Source: an uncultured archaeon (GTDB lineage Archaea > Aenigmatarchaeota > Aenigmatarchaeia > CG10238-14 > SCSR01). From it: DNA of 51,795 nt. The stretch's first letter is position 1, and every line of letters starts with the position of its first letter. Below are positions 2,040 to 47,839 of the stretch, piece after piece. The DNA lies in contig CAYITO010000002.1 in NCBI GenBank assembly GCA_964366355.1, positions 1 to 51,795 of the forward strand, written 5' to 3'. Below the pieces are notes generated by a model. The model saw nothing but the letters and a program-made list of their open reading frames with translations. It made no database searches and had not been told where the DNA came from. The translations under genes were made by a program, and so were the position numbers.

Positions 2040-3107
2040 TTAGATAAGTCTGATTTTATTACCTCTAAAAATTGCAACTAAATTTCTAGAATATGTAATT
2101 CTACCTATAACATCGGCTTCAACTCTATTTCTTTCAAGAAAATCTAATAAATCATCTTTAGAATTTTTAGAAACAATAAAAGAAAAACCCCATCCCAAAT
2201 TGAAAGTTTTTAAGAATTCTTTATCAGTTAATGTTACACCTAAATCTTTAGCTGTATCTTGTACTAATTGAAAGATCGGTTGAGGTTTGAAGTTGTTGAA
2301 CTCAAATCCTATTTTACTATCGTTAAATTTCATCAATTTTCCAAACTTCAAATAAGCATCTCCTGTAATATGAACGGCAGCTTTAATTTTAAATTTTTTA
2401 GCAACTTTTGAAAATGATTCAAAATATACTTTAGTTGGCTTTAAAACTTCGTGGACAAGTTCCGTATCAAAACCATTAGGTATATAAAATGGATTATATT
2501 TACCGCCCCATTTTTTAAACAAAATTCTTCTAACTAATGATATACCATTACTATGCAATCCGGAACTTCTTAATCCTATTATTACGTCATCGATTTCAAG
2601 ATTATTCCCCCAAATTATTTCATTCTCAGTAAGTTCACCCACACAGCTGCAAATTATATGAAAAGGATTTTCAGATACACCATTAATTAATTCCTTTACG
2701 TCAGCAATTTCTCCTCCTACAATTGGAACTCGTGCCTGATTTGCCCCTTTCTTAATACCTTTAACTAATTCTGAAATAATTTTTGGTTCAGATTTATGTA
2801 TATCAATATTATCTGCGAGTGAAACTGGTTTAGCACCAGAACGAATAATATCATTTACAGTCATAGCTACAGCATCAATTCCTATAGTATCAAACTTGTT
2901 TGCCAATTGAGCTATCAGAACTTTCGTACCAACTCCTTCAATTACATGATCTTGATATTTTCCGTTGCCAACAGAATATATAGTATTGTAAGGTAGTTTT
3001 GTCATGGGATATTCATAAGCTTTTTCGAAATCACTAAGATTGGCTTTTGATTCTGCTCTAGAATCTCTATCAACACCTGCATCAGAATAGGTAATTTCTT
3101 TTTCCAT
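2040..3107 (-). CDS. purM: Phosphoribosylformylglycinamidine cyclo-ligase (AIR synthetase, PurM)
   Basis: PurM-like N- and C-domains (DAGVD ... VGGEIADV). The likely start is the internal Met MEKEITY at 3107, not the ORF-track start at 3218. Confidence 0.85.
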   Translation of the reverse strand: MEKEITYSDAGVDRDSRAESKANLSDFEKAYEYPMTKLPYNTIYSVGNGKYQDHVIEGVGTKVLIAQLANKFDTIGIDAVAMTVNDIIRSGAKPVSLADNIDIHKSEPKIISELVKGIKKGANQARVPIVGGEIADVKELINGVSENPFHIICSCVGELTENEIIWGNNLEIDDVIIGLRSSGLHSNGISLVRRILFKKWGGKYNPFYIPNGFDTELVHEVLKPTKVYFESFSKVAKKFKIKAAVHITGDAYLKFGKLMKFNDSKIGFEFNNFKPQPIFQLVQDTAKDLGVTLTDKEFLKTFNLGWGFSFIVSKNSKDDLLDFLERNRVEADVIGRITYSRNLVAIFRGNKIRLI

Positions 3108-3159
3108 ATCTCTACTTTTGACAGTAGAATTTATAAATTGACTGAAAACAAAGTGGATT

Positions 3160-3411
3160 ATGATGTTCTCTCTAGATATATCAGAGGTTGCAGAGAGGAG
3201 ACTAAAGAAATTTGACAAAGAACTTCAAAGAAGGTTCTTCAAGAAAGTAGAAAAGTTGAAAATAAATCCATATCATGGCAAACCTCTACGATACGGCTTA
3301 TCTGGTACGTGGGAACTGTATTTTGAGAAAAGTTTTAGAATTTTGTATTCCATAGATAAGAACAGTAAGAAAGTAACTATTGAATCTATATGGCACAAAG
3401 ACGAATTTTAG
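3160..3411 (+). CDS. RelE/ParE-family type II toxin (mRNA interferase-like)
   Basis: 83 aa. GKPLRYGLSGTWELYFEKSFRILYSIDKNSKKVTIESIWHKDEF is the canonical RelE/ParE C-terminal core. Confidence 0.75.
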   Translation: MMFSLDISEVAERRLKKFDKELQRRFFKKVEKLKINPYHGKPLRYGLSGTWELYFEKSFRILYSIDKNSKKVTIESIWHKDEF

Positions 3412-6559: not shown

Positions 6560-8449
6560 TCAAACAAGAAATGGCGGCAAATCAACTTTCGGTACTGCAA
6601 CAATGTATTCGTTGAATGCCAATATACCCTTATGCAGATTATCGCGCAAATATCCCCAACCATGTATGTAAACTGGATTAAATCCAGCAGGAGTTAAAAA
6701 ATAAATGTGTTCTATTCCTGCTTCTTCTAGTCGTTTATGGAATTCTTTTGTTTCCGTTTCAGACCAAATATCATTTATGCCTACATCTAGGTAAAGTGTC
6801 ATATGATTTATCTGCTCTTTAGGTGGTATTTTAACTTTATTAAAAATTACAAAATCGCCCTTTGTTGTAAAGGATATTGGATCATATAAAACATATCTTT
6901 GATAAAAACCACTATAACCTGCCAAAAACCCAAACAACTCAGGATGCCTAAATCCTATCCAAAAGGCGCCATGCCCACCAATAGAAAAACCCAAAATGCC
7001 CCGTGCTGATTTGTCTGCTATTGTTCTGTATGTGGAATCTATATATGGAATTAAATCCTTCACTATGTAGTCTTCATAATTGCCGCATGAACGGACTTCT
7101 GGATGTTTACTTACTGCAATGAAAGGATTGAACCCGCTACAACCATTTTCCAATCCACTGTCATCTATGTCGGGCATTACGAATATTATTTCTTCAAGAC
7201 CTTCTTTTGTAAGCTTATCCAAAGTTTTATCTATGTCCGCTTTTTTAAGCCAGGCATTATGGTCTTCTGCTGCTCCATGCATGAGATATAAAACTGGATA
7301 GTTTTTTGAACTAGAATAATAACTAGGTGGGAGGTATATGAGGTATTTTCTCTCCTTCTTCAAGGCTGGGCTATAAAAGCTCATCTCTGCAAAAGGTTGG
7401 CAATCCCCTTGCCCAATAGCGCACCAAGAACAAGTTCTACATGCCCAGTCAGAGGATGCAGACTTTATGGGTTTATAACTTCCATCAGAACATTTGTATA
7501 CACCTTGGTATGCTCCGCCACAACCAAGCCCCTGTTGCTGTTCTATTGTACCTTGATCATATTCCCCACATCTAACTCCTATGTATTCGTCACAAGTTAT
7601 TGGCTGAGATTCTATTGGTGATTCACTTCCCTGTGATTGACTTTTCCCAATAAGTGTAGGGGCACAAACACTCTGATAATCAAAATCTTGAGGCGGCTGT
7701 AGAAAGAAATTACAGCAATCACCATAACCTTCACATAAATTATCGCACCAGCATTCTTTACCATCACCGATACCAAATGATTTGCCACACTTATCTTTAG
7801 TACAGATAAGTCCAGCAGATTGTGGAATTCCTGATGATGTAGTAATCGGGGTCGGCGCAGATGATGGTTGCCCTCCGCAAAGCTGCTGATAATCAGAACA
7901 GCAATCTTTGTTACCAGTACAAATTGTATCACAGTAGCACGGCGGTGATGAGCCTAGTACTGGTTTATTATCTTTATTGCAATAGTTTTTACCGTCATCT
8001 GGATCAATATTTGCGCAACCACCAGAAGATTGAGGTGTTGGTTGTGGTGTGGGAGAAGGTGCAGCACCTTTGCAAACACTTTGATAACCTTGAGAGCCTG
8101 TGCAGCAATCACCATAACCTTCACATAAATTATCGCACCAGCATGGCTGAGAAGTAGAGGATACGCCTTCTCCACCGCATTTATTTTGGCAACTGCCTTC
8201 GTATGATGCAGATGGTATCGAAGTAGTGCTTACACACTGTCCATTGCTGCATGTAGTTCCTGAAGGGCATTTGATAAAATTCCAATCCTTGAAGCCATCG
8301 TTATTGATGTCTTTACATTCCCAAAGGAAATCAGTGCCTTGGCATACGGATGCCGTACATGCATCTTGTTGTGCCGTAACTATTAAATTAGATAATAGGA
8401 ATAACAAAGATCCTGTGACTGCAATAAAAAAGAAATATGAAAGTTTCAT
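6560..8449 (-). CDS. Secreted esterase (Esterase-D / putative-esterase fold, GFSIGGHG nucleophile elbow) with an N-terminal signal peptide and three somatomedin-B-like Cys-rich modules
   Basis: Signal peptide MKLSYFFFIAVTGSLLFLLS. The Cys-rich modules are ...CWCDNLCEGYGDCCTGSQGYQSVC, ...CYCDTICTGNKDCCSDYQQLC and ...CWCDNLCEGYGDCC...DYQSVC. The C-terminal half has a G-x-S-x-G esterase motif and a conserved His. Confidence 0.7.
   Translation of the reverse strand: MKLSYFFFIAVTGSLLFLLSNLIVTAQQDACTASVCQGTDFLWECKDINNDGFKDWNFIKCPSGTTCSNGQCVSTTSIPSASYEGSCQNKCGGEGVSSTSQPCWCDNLCEGYGDCCTGSQGYQSVCKGAAPSPTPQPTPQSSGGCANIDPDDGKNYCNKDNKPVLGSSPPCYCDTICTGNKDCCSDYQQLCGGQPSSAPTPITTSSGIPQSAGLICTKDKCGKSFGIGDGKECWCDNLCEGYGDCCNFFLQPPQDFDYQSVCAPTLIGKSQSQGSESPIESQPITCDEYIGVRCGEYDQGTIEQQQGLGCGGAYQGVYKCSDGSYKPIKSASSDWACRTCSWCAIGQGDCQPFAEMSFYSPALKKERKYLIYLPPSYYSSSKNYPVLYLMHGAAEDHNAWLKKADIDKTLDKLTKEGLEEIIFVMPDIDDSGLENGCSGFNPFIAVSKHPEVRSCGNYEDYIVKDLIPYIDSTYRTIADKSARGILGFSIGGHGAFWIGFRHPELFGFLAGYSGFYQRYVLYDPISFTTKGDFVIFNKVKIPPKEQINHMTLYLDVGINDIWSETETKEFHKRLEEAGIEHIYFLTPAGFNPVYIHGWGYLRDNLHKGILAFNEYIVAVPKVDLPPFLV
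7713..7754. repeat. Intragenic 42-nt exact duplication (copy 1) within the SMB-like modules
   Basis: cagcaatcaccataaccttcacataaattatcgcaccagcat is identical to 8103..8144. The offset is 390 nt, which is in frame. Confidence 0.9.
8103..8144. repeat. Intragenic 42-nt exact duplication (copy 2)
   Basis: Identical to 7713..7754. Confidence 0.9.
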
Positions 8450-8489: not shown

Positions 8490-10859
8490 TTAACTTAAAG
8501 TTTTCTTCCAAGAATTTCTTAAAGAATTTGCATCTGTGGCAATTATTTTATTGCCATTTAATCCATATACCTCGAAATTATTATTTTCAAGTACTTTTCC
8601 AATTTTTGCATGTGATATCTCTTTTGTCAAATCTTCAAACCTTTCTCTATCAAATTCGTTTACCTCAACTAAAAACCTGCTATTGGATTCTGAAAATAAT
8701 ACAAAATCATCCCTACCAATATTTTCAATTGGAACTTTACTCAAATCCACCTCTACACCATACCTACTGCTAAAAGCCATTTCAGCCAATGCTGCAGCCA
8801 ACCCTCCTTCAGACATATCATGACAAGCTTTCACATAACCAGCATCTATCGCAGCGGTAACTGCATCAAATGTTTTCTTCGCTTCCTCAGCGTTAACTTT
8901 CGGAACAGAATTTCCCAGATGCCCGTTTAACTTATAGTACTCACTACCGCCTAACTCAGGATAAGTCTTACCAACTATGTATAGCAAATTCCCAGGTTTC
9001 TTCAAATCTACTGATACAGCCTTTCTAACATCAGGAATTATGCCTAATGCTGTTATCAATAAAGATGGTGTGACAGCTCCTAAAGGCGATTCATTGTATA
9101 AACTGTCTTTACCAGAAATGAAAGGTGTTTGGCAGACTTTTGCTATGTCGTAACAAGCTTTAGCTGCTCTAACCAACCCACCTAACCTATCTGACTTCTC
9201 AGGATTACCCCAACAGAAATTATCCAATAATGCAATTCTCCTACCGCCTACAGCTACGTTATTTCTTATAGCTTCGTCTATAGCAGACGCTGCCATCCAG
9301 TAAGGATCGATCTTGCCGTAGTTAGGATTCATTCCAGATGATATGACTATTCCCTGCCAACTGTTAGCTAATGGTTTTAACACTGCGGCATCATTTGGGC
9401 CTGAAAATTCTCCATGCAATGGTTTCAATACAGTGTTGCCCTTTACTTCATGATCGTAAGTTCTTATAACAGATTCCTTGCTGGCGATGTTTGGTTGAGC
9501 CAATAGTTTCAAAACAATTTCTGTCAGGTCTTTTGGCATGTCAAATTTTGGTTCGGGATGTTCGGGCTTTTTCCATACAGCTTTTTTTGATGCAATAATT
9601 GGGTTGAAAAGAAATTCCAAATTCATCTCCCCGACCGAAGTTCCTTTGTAATGTATATTGGCCGTCTTGTCTTCAATGAATTTTCCAATCGGAGTCGCCT
9701 CGACATCCTCATCTGCGAATATGCCTAAAACTTTTTGCAAATTCTCATCAGGAACGACCAAAAGCATTCTTTCCTGCGATTCAGAGACAAAAATTTCCCA
9801 AGGATCCAACTTCTCCCTGAGCGGAACGGAATCCAGAAAAACACTCACTCCGACACCGGCTGAATAGGCCAATTCACAGGAACCGCATGATATGCCTCCC
9901 CCGCCAACATCGGTTATTGCCGACGCCAGTTTCCTGTCTCTGATCTCCAAAATTGCCCTTTTCAGTTTTTCCTGCTGTATAGGGTCTGCAATCTGGACTG
10001 CCGGCCTGAAAACTTCGGATTTCTTTGCCAGTTCAACAGACGCAAAAGTAACGCCGTGAATTCCGTCTCGTCCGGTTTTGTTTCCAGCAATCACCAGAAC
10101 ATCGCCAACTTTAATATCCTTTACAAACTTGTCTTTCGGGAGCAAGCCGACACATCCACAATAAACCAAAGGATTGCCCACGTATCCTTCGTCAAAATAA
10201 ATGGCGCCATTAACAGTCGGTATTCCCATTTTGTTTCCATAAGTGCCAACACCTGCGGTCACGCCATTGAAAATAAACTTCGGGTGCTTCATCTCTGCAG
10301 GCAGTTTTTTGTAATCATAATCCAGCGGACCGAAGCAAAGGACATCTGTATTAGCAATTGGCTCTGCCCAAACACCCAGTATATCCCTGATAACACCGCC
10401 GACGCCTGTGGCTGCCCCGCCGAATGGCTCGATTGCTGATGGATGGTTGTGCGTCTCGACTTTTATTGCTACAGCCTGCCCGTCGGCAAAATCAACTATG
10501 CCTGCATTGTCCTTGAATGTCAAGAACAACCACGGTGATTTCAATTCTTCGGTCACTTTGGCTATGTAAGTCTTGAATAGATTTTTTATTGTTCCATCCT
10601 CAGCAATGATTTCTCCTTTGAAGGTTTTGTGGGAGCAATGCTCGCTCCATGTCTGCGCTATGCATTCAATTTCAACATCGGTGGGGTTTCGATTTAGTTT
10701 TTTGTAGTGTTGCTGGATGAATTTCATTTCTTCAAGACTGAATGCTAGTTGATTTTCTTGGCTTAATTGAATTAACGCTTGATCGTCAGCATCCATAATG
10801 TTGATTTCGCATAGTAGAAATGGAAGTTGTTTTTTAATAAATAGTGCATTCATATCCAA
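8490..10859 (-). CDS. purL: Phosphoribosylformylglycinamidine synthase II (PurL)
   Basis: 789 aa with the PurL signature TWSEHCSHKTF and duplicated AIRS/AIRS-C domains. The start may be the internal Met at about 10796. Confidence 0.9.
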   Translation of the reverse strand: MDMNALFIKKQLPFLLCEINIMDADDQALIQLSQENQLAFSLEEMKFIQQHYKKLNRNPTDVEIECIAQTWSEHCSHKTFKGEIIAEDGTIKNLFKTYIAKVTEELKSPWLFLTFKDNAGIVDFADGQAVAIKVETHNHPSAIEPFGGAATGVGGVIRDILGVWAEPIANTDVLCFGPLDYDYKKLPAEMKHPKFIFNGVTAGVGTYGNKMGIPTVNGAIYFDEGYVGNPLVYCGCVGLLPKDKFVKDIKVGDVLVIAGNKTGRDGIHGVTFASVELAKKSEVFRPAVQIADPIQQEKLKRAILEIRDRKLASAITDVGGGGISCGSCELAYSAGVGVSVFLDSVPLREKLDPWEIFVSESQERMLLVVPDENLQKVLGIFADEDVEATPIGKFIEDKTANIHYKGTSVGEMNLEFLFNPIIASKKAVWKKPEHPEPKFDMPKDLTEIVLKLLAQPNIASKESVIRTYDHEVKGNTVLKPLHGEFSGPNDAAVLKPLANSWQGIVISSGMNPNYGKIDPYWMAASAIDEAIRNNVAVGGRRIALLDNFCWGNPEKSDRLGGLVRAAKACYDIAKVCQTPFISGKDSLYNESPLGAVTPSLLITALGIIPDVRKAVSVDLKKPGNLLYIVGKTYPELGGSEYYKLNGHLGNSVPKVNAEEAKKTFDAVTAAIDAGYVKACHDMSEGGLAAALAEMAFSSRYGVEVDLSKVPIENIGRDDFVLFSESNSRFLVEVNEFDRERFEDLTKEISHAKIGKVLENNNFEVYGLNGNKIIATDANSLRNSWKKTLS

Positions 10860-17372: not shown

Positions 17373-18512
<1,140 letters not shown>

Positions 18513-21446: not shown

Positions 21447-22787
21447 ATGTCAGTCCATCCAATAGAATACCGCTACTTCTATCCAGAAATGAAGAAACTA
21501 TGGACTGAAGAAAATAAACTTGAAACTTGGTTGAAAGTTGAGGCTACATTGGTAAAAGTTCATGCAAAACTCGGAACTATACCTCAATCTGCTGCAGATG
21601 AGATAGTAAAAAAGGCAAATTTGAATTTCGTAAAATTGGATAGAGTCAAGGAAATTGAAGAGGAAATACAGCACGATTTGATGGCCATGGTTAATGCATT
21701 AACCGAGGTCTGCGATGGGGAAGCTAAAAATTATGTCCATCTGGGAGCCACTTCTTATGACATAGAGGATACTGCGCTTGCACTGCAATTAAGAGATTCG
21801 GTGAAAATAATAGAAAATGACTTGAACGAATTAAAAGGTGGTTTGCTAAATTTAGCAAGTATCCACAAAGAAACCATCTGTATCGGAAGAACCCACGGAC
21901 AGCATGCATTGCCCACAACTTACGGAATGAAATTTGCACTCTGGGCAACGGAAATGAAAAGGCATATGGAAAGGCTTGATGATGTCAAGAAAAGAATTTT
22001 GGTAGGAAAGATGAGTGGAGCAGTTGGAACTAGCGCAAGCCATGGTGAAAAAGCTGAAGAAATAAACAAACTAGTGATGCAAGAGTTGAATTTAGGACAA
22101 GTGTTAATAACAACACAAGTTATTCAAAGGGACAGACATGCCGAATTACTAATGGATTTAGCATTAATAGCTGCAACTTTGGATAAGATTGCAAAAGAAA
22201 TTAGAAACCTACAGCGGACGGAGATAGCCGAGGTCATGGAGCCTGTAAAAGCCAAGCAGGTAGGCTCATCGGCTATGCCCCACAAAAGAAATCCGCACAA
22301 AAGCGAAAGGATATGCGGATTGGCCAGAATTATAAAATCGTTTGCACTTACTTCCTTGGAGAATGTATCTTTGGAACATGAAAGAGACCTAACCAACTCG
22401 GCTCCAGAAAGAATAATTTACCCAGAAACGTTCATTCTTCTCGACTATATGCTTAGACAGATGTCGCAGATAATGAATGGGTTGGAATTCAATTATGGCA
22501 ATATCAAAAGGAATTTGGAAATGACAAAAGGATTGATAATGACTGAGCATGTGATGAACGGTCTGGTGAAAAGGGGTATGGGGAGGCAGGAAGCCCATGA
22601 ATTTCTAAGAAACTGCTCTTCAGAGGTAATCAAAACTGGCAAAAGTCTAAAGGAAGTTCTGTTTGAGAAAGGCATATCCCAATATTTTACAGAAGAGGAA
22701 TTGGATTGGTACTTAGAACCTAAGAACTATATTGGTAACTCAATTGGATTGGTTGAAAATGTGATAAGAACTTTGGGCAAGTCCTAA
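21447..22787 (+). CDS. purB: Adenylosuccinate lyase (PurB)
   Basis: 446 aa fumarate-lyase superfamily with the signature region GSSAMPHKRNP. Confidence 0.9.
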   Translation: MSVHPIEYRYFYPEMKKLWTEENKLETWLKVEATLVKVHAKLGTIPQSAADEIVKKANLNFVKLDRVKEIEEEIQHDLMAMVNALTEVCDGEAKNYVHLGATSYDIEDTALALQLRDSVKIIENDLNELKGGLLNLASIHKETICIGRTHGQHALPTTYGMKFALWATEMKRHMERLDDVKKRILVGKMSGAVGTSASHGEKAEEINKLVMQELNLGQVLITTQVIQRDRHAELLMDLALIAATLDKIAKEIRNLQRTEIAEVMEPVKAKQVGSSAMPHKRNPHKSERICGLARIIKSFALTSLENVSLEHERDLTNSAPERIIYPETFILLDYMLRQMSQIMNGLEFNYGNIKRNLEMTKGLIMTEHVMNGLVKRGMGRQEAHEFLRNCSSEVIKTGKSLKEVLFEKGISQYFTEEELDWYLEPKNYIGNSIGLVENVIRTLGKS

Positions 22788-22829
22788 ACTACAGACAAAG
22801 CTTAATAAATTACGCTGTTATAATAAAAT

Positions 22830-23975
22830 ATGCTGGAAAGGAAAGAATTACAGGAAATTGCTTCGAATTATTCTAATGTAACTATCGGTGTTTTGGGCTC
22901 TCATTCTGCCGAGGAAGTTGGAATTGCCGCCAGGATATTTGGCTTTCCTACAGTTATCATATGCCAGAAAGGCAGGGATGATCTGTATGCCAAACACAAC
23001 AGACATCTATTCGATACTTTTATCACGCTGGACAAATTTTCAGACATGCTCAAAGACAATGTTCAGGAGAGATTGCGAGAATTAAACACGGTCTTCATAC
23101 CAAATCGCTCGTTTTCGGTGTATGTGGGCTATGATGGCATAGAAAATTCATTCAAAGTCCCTTTGTACGGCAACAGATTCCTTTTAAGGACGGAAGAGAG
23201 AACAGAATCAAAAAATCAATATTGGCTGCTTGAGAAGGCTGGAATAAGAATCCCGAAAAAGTTCAGTTCGCAAGATGAAATTGATAGGCTGGTAATAGTT
23301 AAAGTTCAGCAAAAACACAGGCCTAATGAAAGGGCGTTTTTCTACTGCAGCTCCAGCGAAGAGTTTGAAAAGAGATCAAATGAACTGCTAGGGAAAGACA
23401 TGATAACCAAAAATGATTTAGAGAAGGCGAGAATAGAGGAATTTGTCCTCGGTCAGAAATTCAATGCAAATTTCCACGGCTGGATAACAAAAGAAATTGG
23501 TGATTTTGATTTTGTTGGTTTTGACGAAAGAAAGCAAACCAACTTGCATGGAATATTGTCTTTGCCTGCAAAGGAGCAAATATCTGTAGATGTGCCGATA
23601 GTGAATGAGGAGGTTGGCCATTCAGGATTGACAATGAGGGAATCTCAAAAACCTTTAGTTTATGAGGCGGCTGAGAAATTTAGGAAAGTATGTGAAAAAG
23701 AGTTTGTACCCGGAATATTCGGATTGTTTGCCTTGCAGGGAGCATTGGCTTATGATAACAATAAACTGGAATTTTTTGTGTTTGATGTCAGTCCAAGAGT
23801 TCCCGGAGCGCCTGCAGTCGGTCCGACTTCGCCGGAAATGAGAAGACTTACGCTGAAATATGGAAATTTGCTGTCGCAATTCAATATGCCAAAAATTGAA
23901 TCGCCGATGGACTTATCTATGCTTGAAATAAAGTATGCTATTAAAAACAAGAGGCTTGATGATGTGGTTACATGA
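22830..23975 (+). CDS. purP: FAICAR synthetase PurP (ATP-grasp, formate-dependent), paralog 1
   Basis: IGVLGSHSAEEVG ... VPLYGNRFLLRTEER matches the archaeal PurP (MJ0136-like) family. Confidence 0.75.
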   Translation: MLERKELQEIASNYSNVTIGVLGSHSAEEVGIAARIFGFPTVIICQKGRDDLYAKHNRHLFDTFITLDKFSDMLKDNVQERLRELNTVFIPNRSFSVYVGYDGIENSFKVPLYGNRFLLRTEERTESKNQYWLLEKAGIRIPKKFSSQDEIDRLVIVKVQQKHRPNERAFFYCSSSEEFEKRSNELLGKDMITKNDLEKARIEEFVLGQKFNANFHGWITKEIGDFDFVGFDERKQTNLHGILSLPAKEQISVDVPIVNEEVGHSGLTMRESQKPLVYEAAEKFRKVCEKEFVPGIFGLFALQGALAYDNNKLEFFVFDVSPRVPGAPAVGPTSPEMRRLTLKYGNLLSQFNMPKIESPMDLSMLEIKYAIKNKRLDDVVT

Positions 23976-25120
23976 TTACAAAAGAAAAAATCAATGAAAC
24001 CCTGGAGAAGTTCGACAAGAATAAGATTACTATAGCCACAATCTGCTCCCATTCTGCTCTGCAAATATTTTTTGGCGCCAAACAGGAAGGTTTCAGGACT
24101 TTGGGAATTTGCAGCAGTGATACGCAGAAAAAATCCTATCAGGCATTTCAGTCATCCGCCCCTGATGAATTCCTGAAAGTTGAAAGCTGGAAGGATATTT
24201 TAGACGAGGGCTTCCAAGAGGAATTGATCAAGAAAAATGCTGTAATTGTTCCACACGGCTCGTTCGTAGAATACGTGGGCACAGATAATTTGTTGAACAA
24301 TCTTAAGGTTCCGATGTTCGGGAACAGACAAAGCCTAGAGTGGGAATCTGACAGGAACAAACAGAGGGAATGGCTTGAGAAGAACGCTGGACTTGAGATG
24401 CCAAAAGAATACAATAGAAATGAAGTGCAGCAGGGCAAACTTTATTTTGTCAAGTTCGGCGGGGCAAAGGGAGGAAAGGGCTTTTTCAAAATCAGATCGG
24501 CTGAACAGATTGACGAGGAAATAGAAAAGATGGTTAAGATAAAAATGTTATCGAAAGAGGATGTAAAATCAATCACTATTCAAGATTATATTCCTGGCAG
24601 CAGATATTATCATCACTTTTTCTTTTCCCCATTATCGAACAATGGCTGGGAGATTAATTACAATAGTCGGCCAGTTGGCGGAGTGACTTTGATGGGAATT
24701 GACAGAAGGGATGAAACTAACATCGATGATCTGCATAGAACAGGATTGAATCCAAGCGAGATGAGGGAAATTGGTATCATGCCGAGCTACAGCGTTGCTG
24801 GAAATACGCCGTTGATTGCAAGGGAATCCCAGTTGCCCAAAATTTTTGAACTGGCTGACAAATCTGTTAAAGCATCCATTAAATTGTTCCCTCCTGGAAT
24901 GGTGGGTCCATTTTGCATAGAAACGTTCTTCACACCTGAAATGAAATACATAGCATTTGAAGTATCTTGCAGGATTGTCGCGGGAACTAACCTGTATCCA
25001 TCCGGCTCGCCATATACAGTTTATGCATTCGGCGATGCTGCTATATCCACCGGCAGAAGAATCGCCCAGGAAGTCAAAACTGCAGTAAAAACTAATCAAC
25101 TAGAAAAAGTAATTTATTAA
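23972..25120 (+). CDS. purP: FAICAR synthetase PurP, paralog 2
   Basis: KITIATICSHSALQIFFGAKQEGFRTLGI ... VPHGSFVEYVG ... VPMFGNRQSLEWESDRNKQREWLEKNAGLEMPKEY is a close match to archaeal PurP. It overlaps paralog 1 by 4 bp. Confidence 0.85.
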   Translation: MITKEKINETLEKFDKNKITIATICSHSALQIFFGAKQEGFRTLGICSSDTQKKSYQAFQSSAPDEFLKVESWKDILDEGFQEELIKKNAVIVPHGSFVEYVGTDNLLNNLKVPMFGNRQSLEWESDRNKQREWLEKNAGLEMPKEYNRNEVQQGKLYFVKFGGAKGGKGFFKIRSAEQIDEEIEKMVKIKMLSKEDVKSITIQDYIPGSRYYHHFFFSPLSNNGWEINYNSRPVGGVTLMGIDRRDETNIDDLHRTGLNPSEMREIGIMPSYSVAGNTPLIARESQLPKIFELADKSVKASIKLFPPGMVGPFCIETFFTPEMKYIAFEVSCRIVAGTNLYPSGSPYTVYAFGDAAISTGRRIAQEVKTAVKTNQLEKVIY

Positions 25121-26126: not shown

Positions 26127-28001
26127 TTAAATCACGCCTGCTCTGACCAAAACCACTGCTATGATTATCACTACAACTACTATTGCGATTATAGGCAGTA
26201 CATCACCGCCTGCGCCTGGCACTGTTGGTGTTGGGGTTGGAGCTGGTGTTGGTGTGGGTTTCGGAGTTGGAGTCGGGGCTGGAACAGTACTGGGTACACT
26301 TGGAGCGGCCTCTTCAAATGAAATTGCAAATACTGAAAATCCAGGTGTCTCGGCTTCATAAGTTATGATGTCCGTGCCCTCCAAAACTTTGGTTGTGCTT
26401 AACCTGTTCCATACGCTATTTGCGAATCTGTTCAAATACATCTTGTCTGCATTTGCATTATTTGCAGTAATCCATTGCTTCTCTACTTTGAATTTGATTT
26501 TAGCCTTGTCTATAGAGCTTTCAGGCAGTCCAGATGGTTTTATATCCAAGTATCTGAATATTTTTCCTGGAGCTTCTGTCACATCTGCAGGCTTTGCATC
26601 CAGCTTATTTACAGTAACATAAACAGAAGTGACATCATTCTTTACAGTAATCGATATAGATGCTACATCACCTGTTTTGATTTCTGCTATCGCCTCTTTG
26701 CCTGCCGACACCTTTGCAATAAATACCTGTGTCTTTCCTTCTGATGGTGTTGAGACAACTGGCACTGATATGGTGGATGTTGTTCCAGGTCCTCCTGGTG
26801 CTGACGGCAGAAGCGTAATGGAGAACTTGACCTTCGATTCTGCTTTGTTGCTTGATGGGTCTGTACATTGCACCGTAATTGTGTGATCCCCGCTATTCAA
26901 ATCGCTAAGGGTAATATCTACACCTTGGCTTAGGGTCTTGAAGTTTCCGGTATTAATCTTATAATCACAACCTGTTGTGCCTGCCACGTTATCGCCAGCA
27001 TTGGCCTTAAATATGACTGTTGCTTCTGTGAATGCACTGCCGCCTGTAGGTTTAAGTATGTTAACATTTGGGTTTTCATTGTCGTTGGCAGTTATAATTA
27101 CTGTCACATTGGAAGCTGTGAAGTTTACATTCCCAGGGTTCAAAAATACTGTTGCGTTGTATGACCTGTTTGATAGCTGGGGTATAGAAGTAATGTTCAA
27201 GCCACTATCTCCTTGTATGTTCGTGAAGTTGAGCATTTTCCATCCAGAGATGTTGGTGTTCAGGCCAATGTATATAATTTCTCTGGTGGCGTTAGTAGTT
27301 ACACGGGAGTTGGTTGCATTGCTAAGGGTACTTGTTCTATTTTCATGGGCGGATATGTTGAATATCATATTTTCATTATTGACAAAATTATAGGTTCTGT
27401 TTCCGTTTGTTCCATTGAGCATGATAGATAGGTTTATCGGATGCTGTGGCACATAGAAGGTAACAGTTGTGGAGTTACCGAGTCCTCCTCCTACCGCAAG
27501 TGCATCTGTAGTATTGTAGGTACGTATTGTCAAGTTCCAGTTCCCAGCTGCTCCCAACTCTGTCTGGCTTATGTTAATCCACCACATGCCCCCTGTATCG
27601 TTGCCCATAAATGTGACATTAGTTCCTGAACCGTTCAACAGTCTGCCACTTGAATAAAATGTGAAGTTCAAGCTGCGGTTGTATGTTCCATCGCTGTTAT
27701 TTGCAGTGAGATTTTGATAAGCAAAAGTCCAAGTAACATTTGAAATGTTATAAAAATCAGTGGTCGCTGCAGTTGCATTATGTGTTATGTTTATAGCAAA
27801 ACTGTATATGTTAGAAGCGTTATATGTCTGGTTCCCTAAGTTCTTTATAGTGACATAAGACTCGTTTGTAGATAGATATGAGAAGTTTCCTCCAGTCATT
27901 TTAAACTGTGGAGTTGCCAACGCAGAAATCGACATTACTGATAAAGAAACCAAAGCTGTAAGAAAAACTAGCAATAATTTCGTTTGTGGTCTGTCAACCA
28001 T
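26127..28001 (-). CDS. Secreted cell-surface (S-layer-like) glycoprotein with an N-terminal signal peptide, dozens of N-x-S/T sequons, a Pro/Thr linker and a C-terminal TM anchor
   Basis: Signal peptide MVDRPQTKLLLVFLTALVSLSVMSISALA. More than 30 N-x-S/T sequons by eye. The C-terminus is PSTVPAPTPTPKPTPTPAPTPTPTVPGAGGDVLPIIAIVVVVIIIAVVLVRAGVI. Confidence 0.7.
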   Translation of the reverse strand: MVDRPQTKLLLVFLTALVSLSVMSISALATPQFKMTGGNFSYLSTNESYVTIKNLGNQTYNASNIYSFAINITHNATAATTDFYNISNVTWTFAYQNLTANNSDGTYNRSLNFTFYSSGRLLNGSGTNVTFMGNDTGGMWWINISQTELGAAGNWNLTIRTYNTTDALAVGGGLGNSTTVTFYVPQHPINLSIMLNGTNGNRTYNFVNNENMIFNISAHENRTSTLSNATNSRVTTNATREIIYIGLNTNISGWKMLNFTNIQGDSGLNITSIPQLSNRSYNATVFLNPGNVNFTASNVTVIITANDNENPNVNILKPTGGSAFTEATVIFKANAGDNVAGTTGCDYKINTGNFKTLSQGVDITLSDLNSGDHTITVQCTDPSSNKAESKVKFSITLLPSAPGGPGTTSTISVPVVSTPSEGKTQVFIAKVSAGKEAIAEIKTGDVASISITVKNDVTSVYVTVNKLDAKPADVTEAPGKIFRYLDIKPSGLPESSIDKAKIKFKVEKQWITANNANADKMYLNRFANSVWNRLSTTKVLEGTDIITYEAETPGFSVFAISFEEAAPSVPSTVPAPTPTPKPTPTPAPTPTPTVPGAGGDVLPIIAIVVVVIIIAVVLVRAGVI

Positions 28002-44115: not shown

Positions 44116-44213
44116 TGGGTCTGCCCGGATTCGAACCGGGGTTTACGCGATTTTGAAAGTTTCGTCAACGCGCCGTCCTTTGCGGATTTTTTAAACCGCT
44201 AGACTACAAACCC
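44116..44213 (-). tRNA. tRNA-Val (anticodon GAC) with a 12-nt intron at 37/38 and a possible second insertion in the D-loop
   Basis: Minus-strand sequence GGGTTTG TA GTCT [AGCGGTTTAAAAAATCCGCAAA] GGAC G GCGCG TTGACG[AAACTTTCAAAA]T CGCGT AAAC CCCGG TTCGAAT CCGGG CAGACCC A. The acceptor and T arms are perfect. U33 and purine-37 are present. Confidence 0.65.
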
Positions 44214-46148: not shown

Positions 46149-46245
46149 CGCCTAGGGCGAGATTTGAACTCGCAAGGTCTTTCGACCGCTGGTTACTCGC
46201 CAAAGGATAGCAAACCAGTGCCATACCAGGTTAGGCGACCTAGGC
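46149..46245 (-). tRNA. tRNA-Ser (anticodon GCU), class II with a long variable arm and a 13-nt intron at 37/38
   Basis: Minus strand: GCCTAGG TC GCC TAACCTGGTAT GGC A CTGGT TTGCTA[TCCTTTGGCGAGT]A ACCAG CGGTCGAAAGACCTT GCGAG TTCAAAT CTCGC CCTAGGC G. All stems are perfect and the total is 97 nt. Confidence 0.85.
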
Positions 46246-46294: not shown

Positions 46295-47839
46295 ATGAAG
46301 CCTGATACCATCCTTGTACTGGATTTTGGGGGGCAATACGCTCATCTGATCGGTAGAAGAATTAGGGAAAATGGCGTCTATTCAGAAGTTGTTTCTTCCA
46401 ATATTTCTGCAGTAGATTTAGCAAACTTGTCAGCAAAATTCAATATCAAAGGCTTAATCCTATCAGGAGGGCCAGCGAGCGTTTACGATTTGGGCTCTCC
46501 TAAGATAAGCAGAACAATTGTAGATTCTAGACTGCCTCTGCTTGGACTGTGTTATGGACATCAATTGTTATCGCATGTTTTTGGCGGTAATGTAAAGAAA
46601 GCCGAGAGGAAAGAATTTGGTCATACACTCGCCCAAGTAACAAAACCAGTCTCTATCTTAAACAAGTTAAACAGGACCGAAAAAGTCTGGATGAGCCATG
46701 GCGATACTGTTTTCAGCATGCCTTCCGAGTTTGAAACCTTGGCATCAACCCCAAATTGCCCTGTAGCAGCATTCAGGCATAAGGTAAAACCCATCTTCGG
46801 AATACAATGGCATCCTGAAGTCATCCACACAGTAAATGGAGACGTGATATTCAGAAATTTCATTTTTGATATTTGCAAATGTGAAAGCAATTGGCAGCCT
46901 GTGAATTTCATCAAAAGTGCCATAAATGAGATCAAACAAGATGTTGGAAATGAAAAGGCGATAATTGCATTGAGCGGTGGTATAGACTCTTCTACTGCCG
47001 CATTGCTTGCCTCAAAAGCGCTTGGCAAGAATCTAGTTGCTGTTTTTGTTGACCATGGATTCATGAGAGAAGGTGAGACTGAAGAAATAAAAAGAATTTT
47101 CAAGAATTCAGGAATCAACTTGGTAACAGTTGATGCAAAGAAGCAATTTCTAAACAAATTGAAAGGAGTGATAGATCCTGAAGAGAAAAGAAAAATTATT
47201 GGCAATGAATTCATCAAAGTGTTTGAAAAATTTGCTGAGAAAGTTAAAGCTACCTACTTGCTACAAGGAACCATTTACCCTGATAGAATTGAATCCGGTT
47301 CTACAAAGCATTCAGACAGGATAAAAACGCATCACAATGTTGGCGGAGTGCCGGGTAAAATAAAATTCAAAAAAATTGTCGAACCTTTGAGAGATTTGTA
47401 TAAGGATGAAGTTAGGAAAATTGCTGAAGAACTGAGTATGCCGATAAACATAGTTAGAAGACAGCCGTTTCCAGGGCCTGCTTTGGCAGTCAGAATAATT
47501 GGCGAAGTTGATGAAAAGAAAATTGATATTGTGAGGAAAGCTGACAGGATTGTTACAGATGAGTTAGAAAGAAGTAATTTCCATGACAAATTATGGCAAT
47601 ATTTTGCAATTTTGACTGATACAAAAACCACGGGTGTTAAAGGCGACGCTAGAGCTTATGGGTATACGGTTGCGATAAGGGCTGTTGAAAGTAAAGAGGC
47701 TATGACTGCCAATTTTGCGAAACTGCCTTATGAAGTTCTGGAGAAAATTTCTACAAGGATAACAAATGAAGTGCCGGAAGTATCGAGAGTTGTGTATGAC
47801 ATAACTCACAAGCCCCCATCAACGATAGAATGGGAATGA
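46295..47839 (+). CDS. guaA: GMP synthase, fused glutamine amidotransferase + ATP-pyrophosphatase form (GuaA)
   Basis: N-terminal GATase (LGLCYGHQLL ... HPE) and C-terminal SGGIDSST PP-loop in a single 514-aa ORF. Confidence 0.9.
   Translation: MKPDTILVLDFGGQYAHLIGRRIRENGVYSEVVSSNISAVDLANLSAKFNIKGLILSGGPASVYDLGSPKISRTIVDSRLPLLGLCYGHQLLSHVFGGNVKKAERKEFGHTLAQVTKPVSILNKLNRTEKVWMSHGDTVFSMPSEFETLASTPNCPVAAFRHKVKPIFGIQWHPEVIHTVNGDVIFRNFIFDICKCESNWQPVNFIKSAINEIKQDVGNEKAIIALSGGIDSSTAALLASKALGKNLVAVFVDHGFMREGETEEIKRIFKNSGINLVTVDAKKQFLNKLKGVIDPEEKRKIIGNEFIKVFEKFAEKVKATYLLQGTIYPDRIESGSTKHSDRIKTHHNVGGVPGKIKFKKIVEPLRDLYKDEVRKIAEELSMPINIVRRQPFPGPALAVRIIGEVDEKKIDIVRKADRIVTDELERSNFHDKLWQYFAILTDTKTTGVKGDARAYGYTVAIRAVESKEAMTANFAKLPYEVLEKISTRITNEVPEVSRVVYDITHKPPSTIEWE

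What the first reader, a model, noticed from the sequence alone, without database searches (positions are those of the whole stretch)
6560..8449. Secreted archaeal esterase carrying three somatomedin-B-like cystine modules, one pair recently duplicated
- Domain call: the N-terminal half has three modules with the spacing C-x-C-D-x2-C-x3-GDCC-x-D-Y-x3-C (for example CWCDNLCEGYGDCCTGSQGYQSVC). This is the hallmark of the somatomedin-B fold.
- Why unusual: that fold is known essentially from eukaryotic extracellular proteins (vitronectin, ENPPs). Finding it on an archaeal esterase is unexpected.
- Recency: a 42-nt stretch is identical at 7713-7754 and 8103-8144, so module 1 and module 3 were duplicated or converted recently.
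Basis: partly seen in the sequence, partly recalled or inferred. Interest (0 to 1): 0.6.

Follow-up and report, generated by a model that had tools for sequence, protein, structure and literature searches.

The report
Archaeal secreted esterase with somatomedin-B modules
A groundwater DPANN-type archaeon encodes an exported CE1-type esterase carrying three genuine somatomedin-B (SMB) domains; this "animal" module turns out to be common on secreted hydrolases of Myxococcota and scattered in DPANN archaea, so the protein is an unusual domain combination, not a unique anomaly.

Summary
The ORF at 6560-8449 (-), 629 aa, is real. It was assembled identically in three Hainich groundwater replicates.

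**SMB call: confirmed**
- Pfam PF01033 scores 52.9 bits for the whole protein.
- Each module passes alone (31.5, 32.8 and 26.7 bits against a cutoff of 23.1).

**Esterase**
- The C-terminal half is a CE1/feruloyl-esterase-like hydrolase with an intact Ser-Asp-His triad.

**Host**
- The host is archaeal: it has PurP, intron-type tRNAs and a PGF-pre-PGF protein.

1. SMB is not essentially eukaryotic. A motif scan of GTDB species genomes found at least 117 loci where about 0.07 were expected by chance. Most are Myxococcota and at least 4 are DPANN archaea. Of 113 ORFs, 102 are Pfam-positive, and they are fused to proteases and other secreted enzymes.
2. The 42-nt identity is a short gene-conversion patch on the CWCDNLCEGYGDCC core, from module 1 to module 3. 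It is not a recent module duplication, because the flanks are unrelated.

**Rarity and function**
- The SMB-esterase fusion is rare: two or three proteins in 5.8 billion clusters.
- SMB function here is inferred to be a targeting or adhesion array, like a CBM.
- No paper describing prokaryotic SMB domains was found.

The parts
6560..8449 (-). Whole gene: 629-aa exported multi-module esterase (the stop codon is 6560-6562)
   Evidence: ORF list. Identical product in independent assemblies.
8369..8449 (-). aa 1-27, MKLSYFFFIAVTGSLLFLLSNLIVTAQQ: N-terminal signal peptide or membrane anchor (inferred from the sequence)
   Evidence: Hydrophobic N-terminus read from the translation and predicted as a helix at aa 4-32. 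A similar N-terminus occurs in the SMB relatives P0065, P0069 and P0067. No signal-peptide predictor was available.
8219..8368 (-). aa 28-77: N-terminal 6-Cys beta-rich module with no family assignment
   Evidence: Cys at 31, 36, 45, 61, 67 and 72. pLDDT is about 77-88 even in the single-sequence model, which predicts beta strands. No Pfam hit. The tail ...CPSGTTCSNGQC resembles ...CPYGCSDGAC in P0065 and the L112 protein.
8069..8194 (-). SMB module 1 (aa 86-127), SCQNKCGGEGVSSTSQPCWCDNLCEGYGDCCTGSQGYQSVCK
7874..8020 (-). SMB module 2 (aa 144-192): long first loop and canonical CYCDTICTGNKDCCSDYQQLC
   Evidence: Pfam 32.8 bits alone. It matches the back-translated SMB core motif. An ortholog occurs in P0065.
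7661..7807 (-). SMB module 3 (aa 215-263), with a 10-residue insertion after the CC
   Evidence: Pfam 26.7 bits alone. Orthologs in P0031 and P0067 have different cores.
8103..8144 (-). Gene-conversion patch, donor copy (core of module 1, CWCDNLCEGYGDCC)
   Evidence: 42-nt exact repeat. 13 of 14 codons are identical, while the flanks are 39% and 52% identical.
7713..7754 (-). Gene-conversion patch, acceptor copy (core of module 3)
   Evidence: The direction is inferred from orthologs: P0069 keeps this core in a module-1-type domain, whereas P0031 and P0067 have other cores in module-3-type domains.
7400..7594 (-). aa 286-350: second unassigned Cys-rich segment (8 Cys) between SMB3 and the esterase
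   Evidence: Cys positions. No Pfam hit. Low model confidence.
6563..7387 (-). aa 355-629: CE1/esterase-D-type alpha/beta hydrolase. Ser489 lies in GFSIGG, Asp560 in GINDIW and His596 in YIHGW. Cys437 and Cys455 are conserved.
   Evidence: Pfam PF00756 at 1.2e-26. The best solved relatives are the CE1 enzyme 7b5v (3.1e-25) and ferulic acid esterases. The triad residues and the Cys pair are conserved in P0002-P0005.

Best explanation
The gene encodes an exported, disulfide-rich, modular serine esterase of a low-GC DPANN-type archaeon from the 0.1-um fraction of Hainich groundwater.

**Architecture.** After an N-terminal signal peptide or anchor come, in order:
1. a small 6-Cys beta module;
2. 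three bona fide somatomedin-B (SMB) domains separated by Pro/Thr/Ser-rich linkers;
3. a further Cys-rich segment;
4. a CE1-type (feruloyl/acetyl-esterase-like) alpha/beta-hydrolase with an intact Ser489-Asp560-His596 triad.

**Likely mechanism (inferred).** The catalytic domain cleaves ester substituents on an extracellular polymer. The SMB array occupies the position that carbohydrate-binding modules hold in other CE1 enzymes. It would act as a disulfide-stabilised targeting or adhesion stalk that holds the enzyme on a surface or ligand, such as the cell's own envelope, a host cell or a polymer.

**Evolution.** The modules belong to a pool of SMB module types shuffled among secreted proteins of this lineage. 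They are fused elsewhere to SLT-like, Ig-like and other C-terminal domains. The same pattern is seen more broadly in Myxococcota, where SMB is appended to many secreted hydrolases. A short gene conversion copied the 14-codon core of module 1 onto module 3.

**Shown:** domain identities, fold, triad, archaeal context, prokaryotic distribution and the conversion patch.

**Inferred:** export, disulfide formation, substrate class and the binding role of SMB.
For: - **Esterase.** PF00756 scores 1.2e-26. The closest solved relatives are the CE1 enzyme 7b5v (3.1e-25) and ferulic acid esterases. GFSIGG, Asp and His are conserved in the 4 closest relatives, and there is an invariant Cys pair.
- **Extracellular location.** The protein has a hydrophobic N-terminus. 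38 of its 40 Cys lie in aa 31-350. It has PT-rich linkers.
- **Archaeal host.** The window encodes PurP (DUF1246/DUF1297) and a PGF-pre-PGF protein. It has tRNA hits of about 98 nt that ARAGORN missed. The nearest esterase homolog is annotated Aenigmarchaeota.
- **Module pool.** P0069, P0065, P0031 and P0067 carry orthologs of modules 1, 2 and 3 with other C-terminal domains.
- **Prokaryotic pattern.** At least 117 loci carry the motif. All 150 motif sites lie in full 8-Cys contexts. 102 of 113 ORFs are Pfam-positive. Partners include trypsin, subtilase, M4, M12B, C1, beta-lactamase-fold proteins and CBM60. Five proteins from archaeal-labelled MAGs pass the Pfam cutoff.
- **Conversion.**
Against: - No experiment or ligand information exists for any prokaryotic SMB domain, so the binding role is an analogy with CBM-bearing CE1 enzymes and with eukaryotic SMB protein-protein interactions.
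- Substrate class is uncertain. All NCBIfam matches are far below their equivalog cutoffs, and weaker matches to enterochelin esterase and PHA depolymerase exist.
- The fold model used a 19-row alignment of SMB-like modules, which could bias it.
- Signal-peptide cleavage and disulfide connectivity could not be computed.
- The phylum of the host was not determined directly.
Confidence: 0.6

Rival explanations
1. The SMB modules are inert structural spacers. They would be disulfide-knotted beads with PT linkers that hold the esterase away from the cell surface or protect it from proteolysis, and they would have no specific ligand.
For: - The modules alternate with Pro/Thr/Ser-rich linkers.
- In prokaryotes the module is attached to very different enzymes and at either end of the protein. 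That would fit a generic stabilising or spacer role.
- Close esterase relatives work with a different N-terminal domain.
Against: - Three distinct module types are each conserved as orthologs across different proteins. This argues for type-specific function and not for interchangeable beads.
- All characterised eukaryotic SMB domains are interaction modules (established knowledge of vitronectin binding to PAI-1 and uPAR).
Confidence: 0.25
2. The catalytic domain is not a carbohydrate (CE1-type) esterase. It would be another esterase-D-fold enzyme, such as a siderophore (enterochelin/IroE-like) esterase, a PHA depolymerase or a lipid or peptidoglycan deacetylating esterase used against neighbouring cells.
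For: - There are NCBIfam sub-threshold matches to enterochelin esterase (2.2e-7) and to short-chain-length PHA depolymerase (6.5e-5).
- There is a PDB match to an IroE-like hydrolase (2.6e-5).
- The related SMB protein P0065 has an SLT/lysozyme-like C-terminus. This hints that the SMB protein set may target cell envelopes.
Against: CE1 and feruloyl esterase matches are about 15-20 orders of magnitude stronger: 3.1e-25 for 7b5v and 6.6e-20 for the xylanase/feruloyl esterase model.
Confidence: 0.2
3. Modules 1 and 3 are a recent whole-module tandem duplication.
For: A 42-nt exact repeat and the shared YQSVC tail.
Against: - Outside the core, only 4 of 17 aligned residues on the 5' side are identical, with 20 of 51 nt identical and 0 of 4 shared codons.
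- Module 3 has a 10-residue insertion.
- Modules 1 and 3 each have separate orthologs in P0069 and in P0031 and P0067.
Confidence: 0.04
4. The SMB-like modules are a convergent Cys-rich motif, or the gene is eukaryotic contamination or an assembly chimera in the MAG.
For: - SMB is a very short domain whose scores are dominated by Cys.
- All the prokaryotic examples come from MAGs.
Against: - Every module scores above the Pfam gathering threshold.
- The gene lies 40 nt downstream of purL in a 51.8-kb contig full of archaeal genes.
- The gene was assembled identically three times.
- The bacterial examples sit on contigs of up to 1 Mb and are fused to bacterial enzyme domains.
Confidence: 0.02

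Closest known systems
Vitronectin N-terminal somatomedin-B domain (PDB 3bt1_B, 1oc0_B)
   Same: - Same 8-Cys signature, C-x3-C-xn-C-x-C-D-x2-C-x5-C-C-x-D-Y-x3-C.
- 42% identity and 2.2 A rmsd over 36 of 40 residues to the model of module 1.
- Same Pfam family.
   Different: - Vitronectin has a single SMB that binds PAI-1 and uPAR in vertebrate plasma and matrix.
- This protein has three modules in an archaeal enzyme.
- Modules 1 and 3 have insertions after the CC, and module 2 has a long first loop.
- Ligands are unknown.
ENPP1/ENPP2 (autotaxin)/ENPP3 and EndoU (PP11) tandem SMB domains
   Same: - Tandem SMB modules lie N-terminal to a secreted hydrolase domain.
- The core CRCDNLC in autotaxin is nearly identical to CWCDNLC here.
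- EndoU 9ftw is the best PDB sequence hit at 7.5e-4.
   Different: - The catalytic partner there is a phosphodiesterase or an endoribonuclease, not an alpha/beta-hydrolase esterase.
- Those are eukaryotic proteins.
- In ENPPs the SMBs pack against the catalytic domain, whereas here long PT linkers suggest beads on a string.
CE1 carbohydrate esterases with an N-terminal binding module (e.g. PDB 7b5v, CE1 + CBM48; XynZ feruloyl esterase 1jjf)
   Same: - Esterase-D/CE1 fold with a GxSxG nucleophile and a Ser-Asp-His triad.
- Modular secreted enzymes with non-catalytic N-terminal modules.
   Different: - The accessory modules are SMB and other Cys-rich knots instead of CBMs.
- Activity and substrate are untested.
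Unpublished prokaryotic SMB-bearing secreted proteins (Myxococcota; DPANN: Woesearchaeota L030/L101/L112, Ainarchaeum L044; P0065, P0069, P0031, P0067)
   Same: - Same SMB consensus, SCxGxCGx7CxCDxxCxxxGDCCxDYxxxC.
- Same logic of SMB appended to secreted enzymes.
- The DPANN-like relatives share orthologous module types, PT linkers and signal-peptide style.
   Different: - Their partners are proteases, beta-lactamase-fold proteins, BNR/sortilin, and SLT-like or Ig-like domains.
- Only P0003, and probably the truncated P0002, combine SMB with this esterase. Those have one SMB plus a different middle domain.

Membership tests
Somatomedin B domain (Pfam PF01033 / SCOP g.64) | Profile-HMM match above the curated gathering score | tested here: met
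   Whole protein 52.9 bits against 23.1. Modules alone score 31.5, 32.8 and 26.7 bits.
Somatomedin B domain (Pfam PF01033 / SCOP g.64) | Eight conserved Cys in about 40 residues, with the C-x-C-D-x2-C-x5-C-C core and a terminal Cys | tested here: met
   All three modules have 8 Cys. The core spacing is exact in all three. The canonical CC-x-D-Y-x3-C tail occurs only in module 2, and modules 1 and 3 have 5- and 10-residue insertions.
Somatomedin B domain (Pfam PF01033 / SCOP g.64) | Compact disulfide-knot fold superimposable on solved SMB domains | tested here: met
Somatomedin B domain (Pfam PF01033 / SCOP g.64) | Four disulfide bonds with the SMB connectivity | not testable with these tools
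This needs mass-spectrometric disulfide mapping or a solved structure.
Somatomedin B domain (Pfam PF01033 / SCOP g.64) | Protein-protein interaction function (PAI-1, uPAR or integrin type binding) | not testable with these tools
   No ligand data exist for any prokaryotic SMB. No paper was found.
Esterase D / carbohydrate esterase family 1-like (Pfam PF00756) | Profile match above the gathering score and similarity to solved CE1 enzymes | tested here: met
   PF00756 scores 94.5 bits against 22. 7b5v scores 3.1e-25, and ferulic acid esterases score from 2.2e-23 to 2e-15.
Esterase D / carbohydrate esterase family 1-like (Pfam PF00756) | GxSxG nucleophile elbow plus an Asp and His triad | tested here: met
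   GFSIGG (Ser489) aligns with GLSMGG of 7b5v. Asp560 and His596 are conserved in P0002-P0005. The Asp and His assignments come from family conservation, not from a structural superposition.
Esterase D / carbohydrate esterase family 1-like (Pfam PF00756) | Feruloyl or acetyl-xylan esterase activity | not testable with these tools
   The NCBIfam xylanase/feruloyl esterase equivalog scores 70.8 bits against a cutoff of 1200. That is domain-level similarity only.

The most novel reading that the evidence does not exclude
SMB is not a holozoan invention. It would be an old prokaryotic extracellular module, abundant in Myxococcota and present in DPANN archaea, that entered the holozoan lineage by horizontal transfer. 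In episymbiotic DPANN archaea, arrays of distinct SMB module types would serve as host- or surface-adhesion devices that deliver hydrolases (esterase, SLT-like lysozyme) to a partner cell's envelope.
Probability: 0.2. Interest if true: 0.65.

Novelty: new variant of a known kind. Interest (0 to 1): 0.45.

Why it matters
- **Textbook view.** The SMB domain is treated as an animal extracellular-matrix and plasma module, and one fold-phylogeny study uses it as a Holozoa synapomorphy (PMC9541633).
- **What this gene shows.** The gene and the survey it prompted show canonical SMB domains in archaea and, in large numbers, in Myxococcota. There they are systematically attached to secreted hydrolases.
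- **Consequences.** This changes the phyletic picture of the fold. It also gives simple prokaryotic systems for asking what an SMB knot binds. For poorly understood DPANN archaea, it points to a family of disulfide-rich modular exoenzymes that may act at the interface with other cells.
- **The gene itself.** It is a rare architecture, not a new principle.

Tried and rejected
1. A word-indexed homolog search with the SMB region alone returned nothing, not even the protein itself. The prefilter fails on this composition. I replaced it with an exhaustive phmmer search.
2. Single-sequence AlphaFold of the full protein was unusable for aa 77-629 (mean pLDDT 38.5). I therefore did not run fold searches on that model.
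3. A profile search with the 74-module alignment retrieved only 15 small proteins from 51 candidates. They were useful only as permitted rows for the structure alignment.
4. A context look-up for P0031 failed because it is not on record. The taxonomy of P0065, P0069 and P0067 could not be obtained because the sources give them no names.
5. The metagenome scan for relatives of the fusion found only the same protein in a third replicate.
6. My first script reported a "44-nt" exact patch because it did not check the core itself. Recounting gives a 42-nt exact match, with 41 of 42 core nt plus 1 upstream nt.
7. I considered and rejected eukaryotic contamination, a convergent motif and whole-module duplication (see the rival explanations).
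8. I did not attempt a phylogeny of 40-residue domains to settle the direction of transfer, because there is too little signal.
Full report
**1. The observation**

The ORF at 6560-8449 on the minus strand is present and encodes 629 aa. Pfam finds Esterase PF00756 (aa 360-578, E=1.2e-26) and Somatomedin_B PF01033. The SMB hit has E=4.7e-14 and 52.9 bits against a gathering score of 23.1, in three stretches.

The three modules lie at these positions:

| Module | Residues | Window coordinates | Pfam bits alone |
|---|---|---|---|
| 1 | aa 86-127 | 8069-8194 | 31.5 |
| 2 | aa 144-192 | 7874-8020 | 32.8 |
| 3 | aa 215-263 | 7661-7807 | 26.7 |

Each has eight Cys, and each passes the Pfam threshold when scanned alone. 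The 42-nt exact repeat 7713-7754 = 8103-8144 is confirmed, and the module-2 copy is 62% identical. The identical protein is found in independently assembled contigs from Hainich groundwater well H51 (0.1-um fraction). Replicates R2 and R3 carry the whole protein, and R1 carries its C-terminal part. The ORF and the repeat are therefore not assembly artefacts.

**2. Is it really SMB?**

- **Sequence search against the PDB.** A search with aa 80-270 returns only SMB-bearing proteins: EndoU (7.5e-4), autotaxin, vitronectin and ENPP1.
- **Structure model.** A single-sequence AlphaFold run was useless for this region. Module 1 with a 19-row alignment of SMB-like modules (A2) gave mean pLDDT 78.3.
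- **Foldseek.** All 24 matches are SMB proteins, although the E-values are only 2-6.

It is not met, so the SMB call stands.

**3. The rest of the protein**

- **N-terminus.** The sequence MKLSYFFFIAVTGSLLFLLSNLIVTAQQ looks like a signal peptide or anchor. This is inferred from the sequence, and the model predicts a helix there.
- **aa 28-77.** This is a 6-Cys beta-rich module with no family assignment.
- **aa 286-350.** This is another segment with eight Cys and no family assignment.
- **Cys distribution.** 38 of the 40 Cys lie in aa 31-350.
- **Linkers.** The segments between modules are Pro/Thr/Ser-rich.
- **C-terminal domain.** It is closest to CE1 carbohydrate esterases and ferulic acid esterases: 7b5v at 3.1e-25, 7xrt at 2.2e-23 and XynZ 1jjf at 6.8e-16. 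GFSIGG (Ser489) aligns with the nucleophile elbow. Asp560 (GINDIW), His596 (YIHGW) and a Cys437/Cys455 pair are conserved in the four closest relatives.
- **Caveat on substrate.** NCBIfam matches are all far below their equivalog cutoffs, so the substrate is not established.

**4. Host and context**

- The window encodes PurL immediately upstream on the same strand.
- It also encodes PurP (DUF1246/DUF1297), which is archaea-specific by established knowledge.
- It encodes a PGF-pre-PGF protein.
- It has two tRNA hits of about 98 nt that ARAGORN's bacterial mode missed. That fits intron-containing archaeal tRNAs.
- The nearest named esterase homolog is from an Aenigmarchaeota MAG.

The host is archaeal and probably DPANN. 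I did not determine the phylum directly.

**5. Is SMB outside eukaryotes unexpected?**

The literature I could search treats SMB as eukaryotic. PMC9541633 lists SCOP g.64 as a Holozoa synapomorphy. No paper combined "somatomedin B" with Myxococc* or DPANN, and nothing under PF01033 dealt with prokaryotes.

The sequence data say otherwise:

- **Motif scan.** I scanned 185,579 GTDB species genomes for the back-translated core C-x-C-D-x2-C-x5-C-C-x-D-[YF]. Uniform base composition predicts about 0.07 chance matches. This is my calculation: 17 fixed bases, 9 Y and 1 W over 1.2e12 positions. The window control gave 0.00 in shuffles.
- **Full signature.** All 150 motif sites sit in a complete 8-Cys SMB context, and 138 were extracted as full modules by pattern. 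The consensus is SCxGxCGx7CxCDxxCxxxGDCCxDYxxxC.
- **Taxonomy.** Most loci are Myxococcota, some on contigs of up to 1 Mb. At least four are DPANN archaea: Woesearchaeota L030, L101 and L112, and Ainarchaeum L044. One more, L034, is labelled Methanosarcinales.
- **Pfam confirmation.** 102 of 113 ORFs are positive, as are all five proteins from archaeal-labelled MAGs that I tested.
- **Fusion partners.** They include trypsin, subtilase, thermolysin M4, reprolysin M12B, papain C1, beta-lactamase-fold proteins, CBM60, AA12 and BNR/sortilin.

SMB is therefore a recurrent accessory module of secreted prokaryotic enzymes. It is placed at either end of the protein, and in about 20 ORFs it is the extreme C-terminal module.

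**6. The fusion and the module pool**

Among the 48 homologs of the whole protein, only P0003 also combines SMB with this esterase. It has one SMB plus a different middle domain. The N-terminally truncated P0002 probably does too. The closest relatives P0004 and P0005 have no SMB.

An exhaustive phmmer search with aa 80-270 against 1.84 billion representatives gave 59 hits at E<=1e-3. The best non-self hit, a fish mucin-like protein, scores highly because it has many SMB repeats. The closest hits module by module are unnamed metagenomic proteins with similar signal peptides and PT linkers:

| Protein | Module type it carries | Other features |
|---|---|---|
| P0069 | module 1, identical CWCDNLCEGYGDCC core and CCTGDQGYQSLC tail | Ig-like C-terminal region |
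| P0065 | module 2 | SLT/lysozyme-like C-terminus |
| P0031, P0067 | module 3, cores CYCDTACVGYGDCC and CWCDSACKGIGDCC | other C-terminal domains |

The three window modules are therefore old, distinct paralog types that are shuffled among secreted proteins of this lineage.

**7. The repeat**

| Region (module 1 vs module 3) | Codons aligned | nt identity | Identical codons among identical residues |
|---|---|---|---|
| 14-codon core | 14 | 41/42 | 13/14 |
| 5' flank | 17 | 20/51 | 0/4 |
| 3' flank | 11 | 17/33 | 3/5 |

With this gene's codon usage, identical codons at all 14 positions have P of about 6e-5. I estimate about 1e-3 for 13 or more. Together with the ortholog comparison in section 6, the best reading is a short gene-conversion tract from module 1 onto module 3. 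It is not a recent duplication of a module.

**8. Mechanism**

Shown: an archaeal modular protein with three SMB domains and an intact CE1-type catalytic domain.

Inferred: the protein is exported, and the Cys-rich modules fold into disulfide knots outside the cell. The SMB array then acts like the binding modules of other CE1 enzymes. It would target or tether the esterase to a polymer or a cell surface, where the esterase removes ester substituents.

Rivals are listed separately with their evidence. They include an inert spacer role for SMB, another esterase specificity, whole-module duplication, and convergence or contamination.

**9. Verdict**

The protein is a new architectural variant built from known domain kinds. 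The wider by-product is of moderate interest for domain evolution: canonical SMB domains are common in Myxococcota and present in DPANN archaea, and the searched literature does not mention this. Interest 0.45.

Noticed in passing
window 2040-3218, 8490-10859, 17376-18512, 21447-25120, 46295-47839: The window is dense in de novo purine-synthesis genes: an AIR-synthase-related protein, PurL, PurA, PurB, two adjacent PurP-type genes (the second, 23972-25120, is assumed by position and size and was not scanned) and GuaA. Many DPANN archaea are described as lacking nucleotide biosynthesis (my own knowledge), so this genome may be metabolically less reduced.
   Followed up: partly
window 44116-44213 and 46149-46245 (-): Two Rfam tRNA hits are 97-98 nt long and cover the full 71-position model, yet ARAGORN in bacterial mode missed both. 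They are probably intron-containing archaeal tRNAs.
   Followed up: no
window 26127-28001 (-): A 624-aa protein carries a PGF-pre-PGF domain (TIGR04213, 3.6e-29). It is a likely archaeosortase-type surface protein.
   Followed up: no
window 8219-8368 (aa 28-77); L112; P0065: An unassigned 6-Cys beta module is predicted confidently even from a single sequence (pLDDT about 80). Its ...CPxG..CxxGxC tail recurs in Woesearchaeota L112 and in P0065, next to CxDxDGGxxY..KG motifs. It may be an undescribed DPANN extracellular module family.
   Followed up: partly
loci L001-L117 (alignment A3): The Myxococcota ORFs that carry SMB also carry other "eukaryote-type" Cys-rich modules: Dicty_CTDC in 7 ORFs, and TNFR_c6 (3.2e-39) and TSP1_ADAMTS in one each. 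L072 encodes a protein of more than 2,600 aa with 7 SMB modules.
   Followed up: no
L003, L006, L013, L017, L049, L062, L067, L071, L072, L074; L034: Several 'binchicken' MAGs titled 'uncultured Enterobacteriaceae bacterium' carry myxobacteria-like multi-SMB proteins. These organism names look like placeholders or mislabels. The 'Methanosarcinales' label of L034 should be treated with the same caution.
   Followed up: no
P0006 (alignment A4): One esterase relative has GFANGG in place of GFSxGG and lacks the conserved Asp and His context. It is a probable catalytically dead paralog that keeps the N-terminal domain.
   Followed up: no
P0002-P0007 N-terminal regions: The close esterase relatives carry a conserved domain of about 180 aa with a repeated 'LSKGWNLI(G/T)(Y/S)P' motif and no Pfam assignment. 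It sits where the window protein has SMB2, SMB3 and the second Cys-rich segment.
   Followed up: no
L120 564-788: A HicA-toxin gene lies directly upstream of the SMB-esterase homolog P0003.
   Followed up: no
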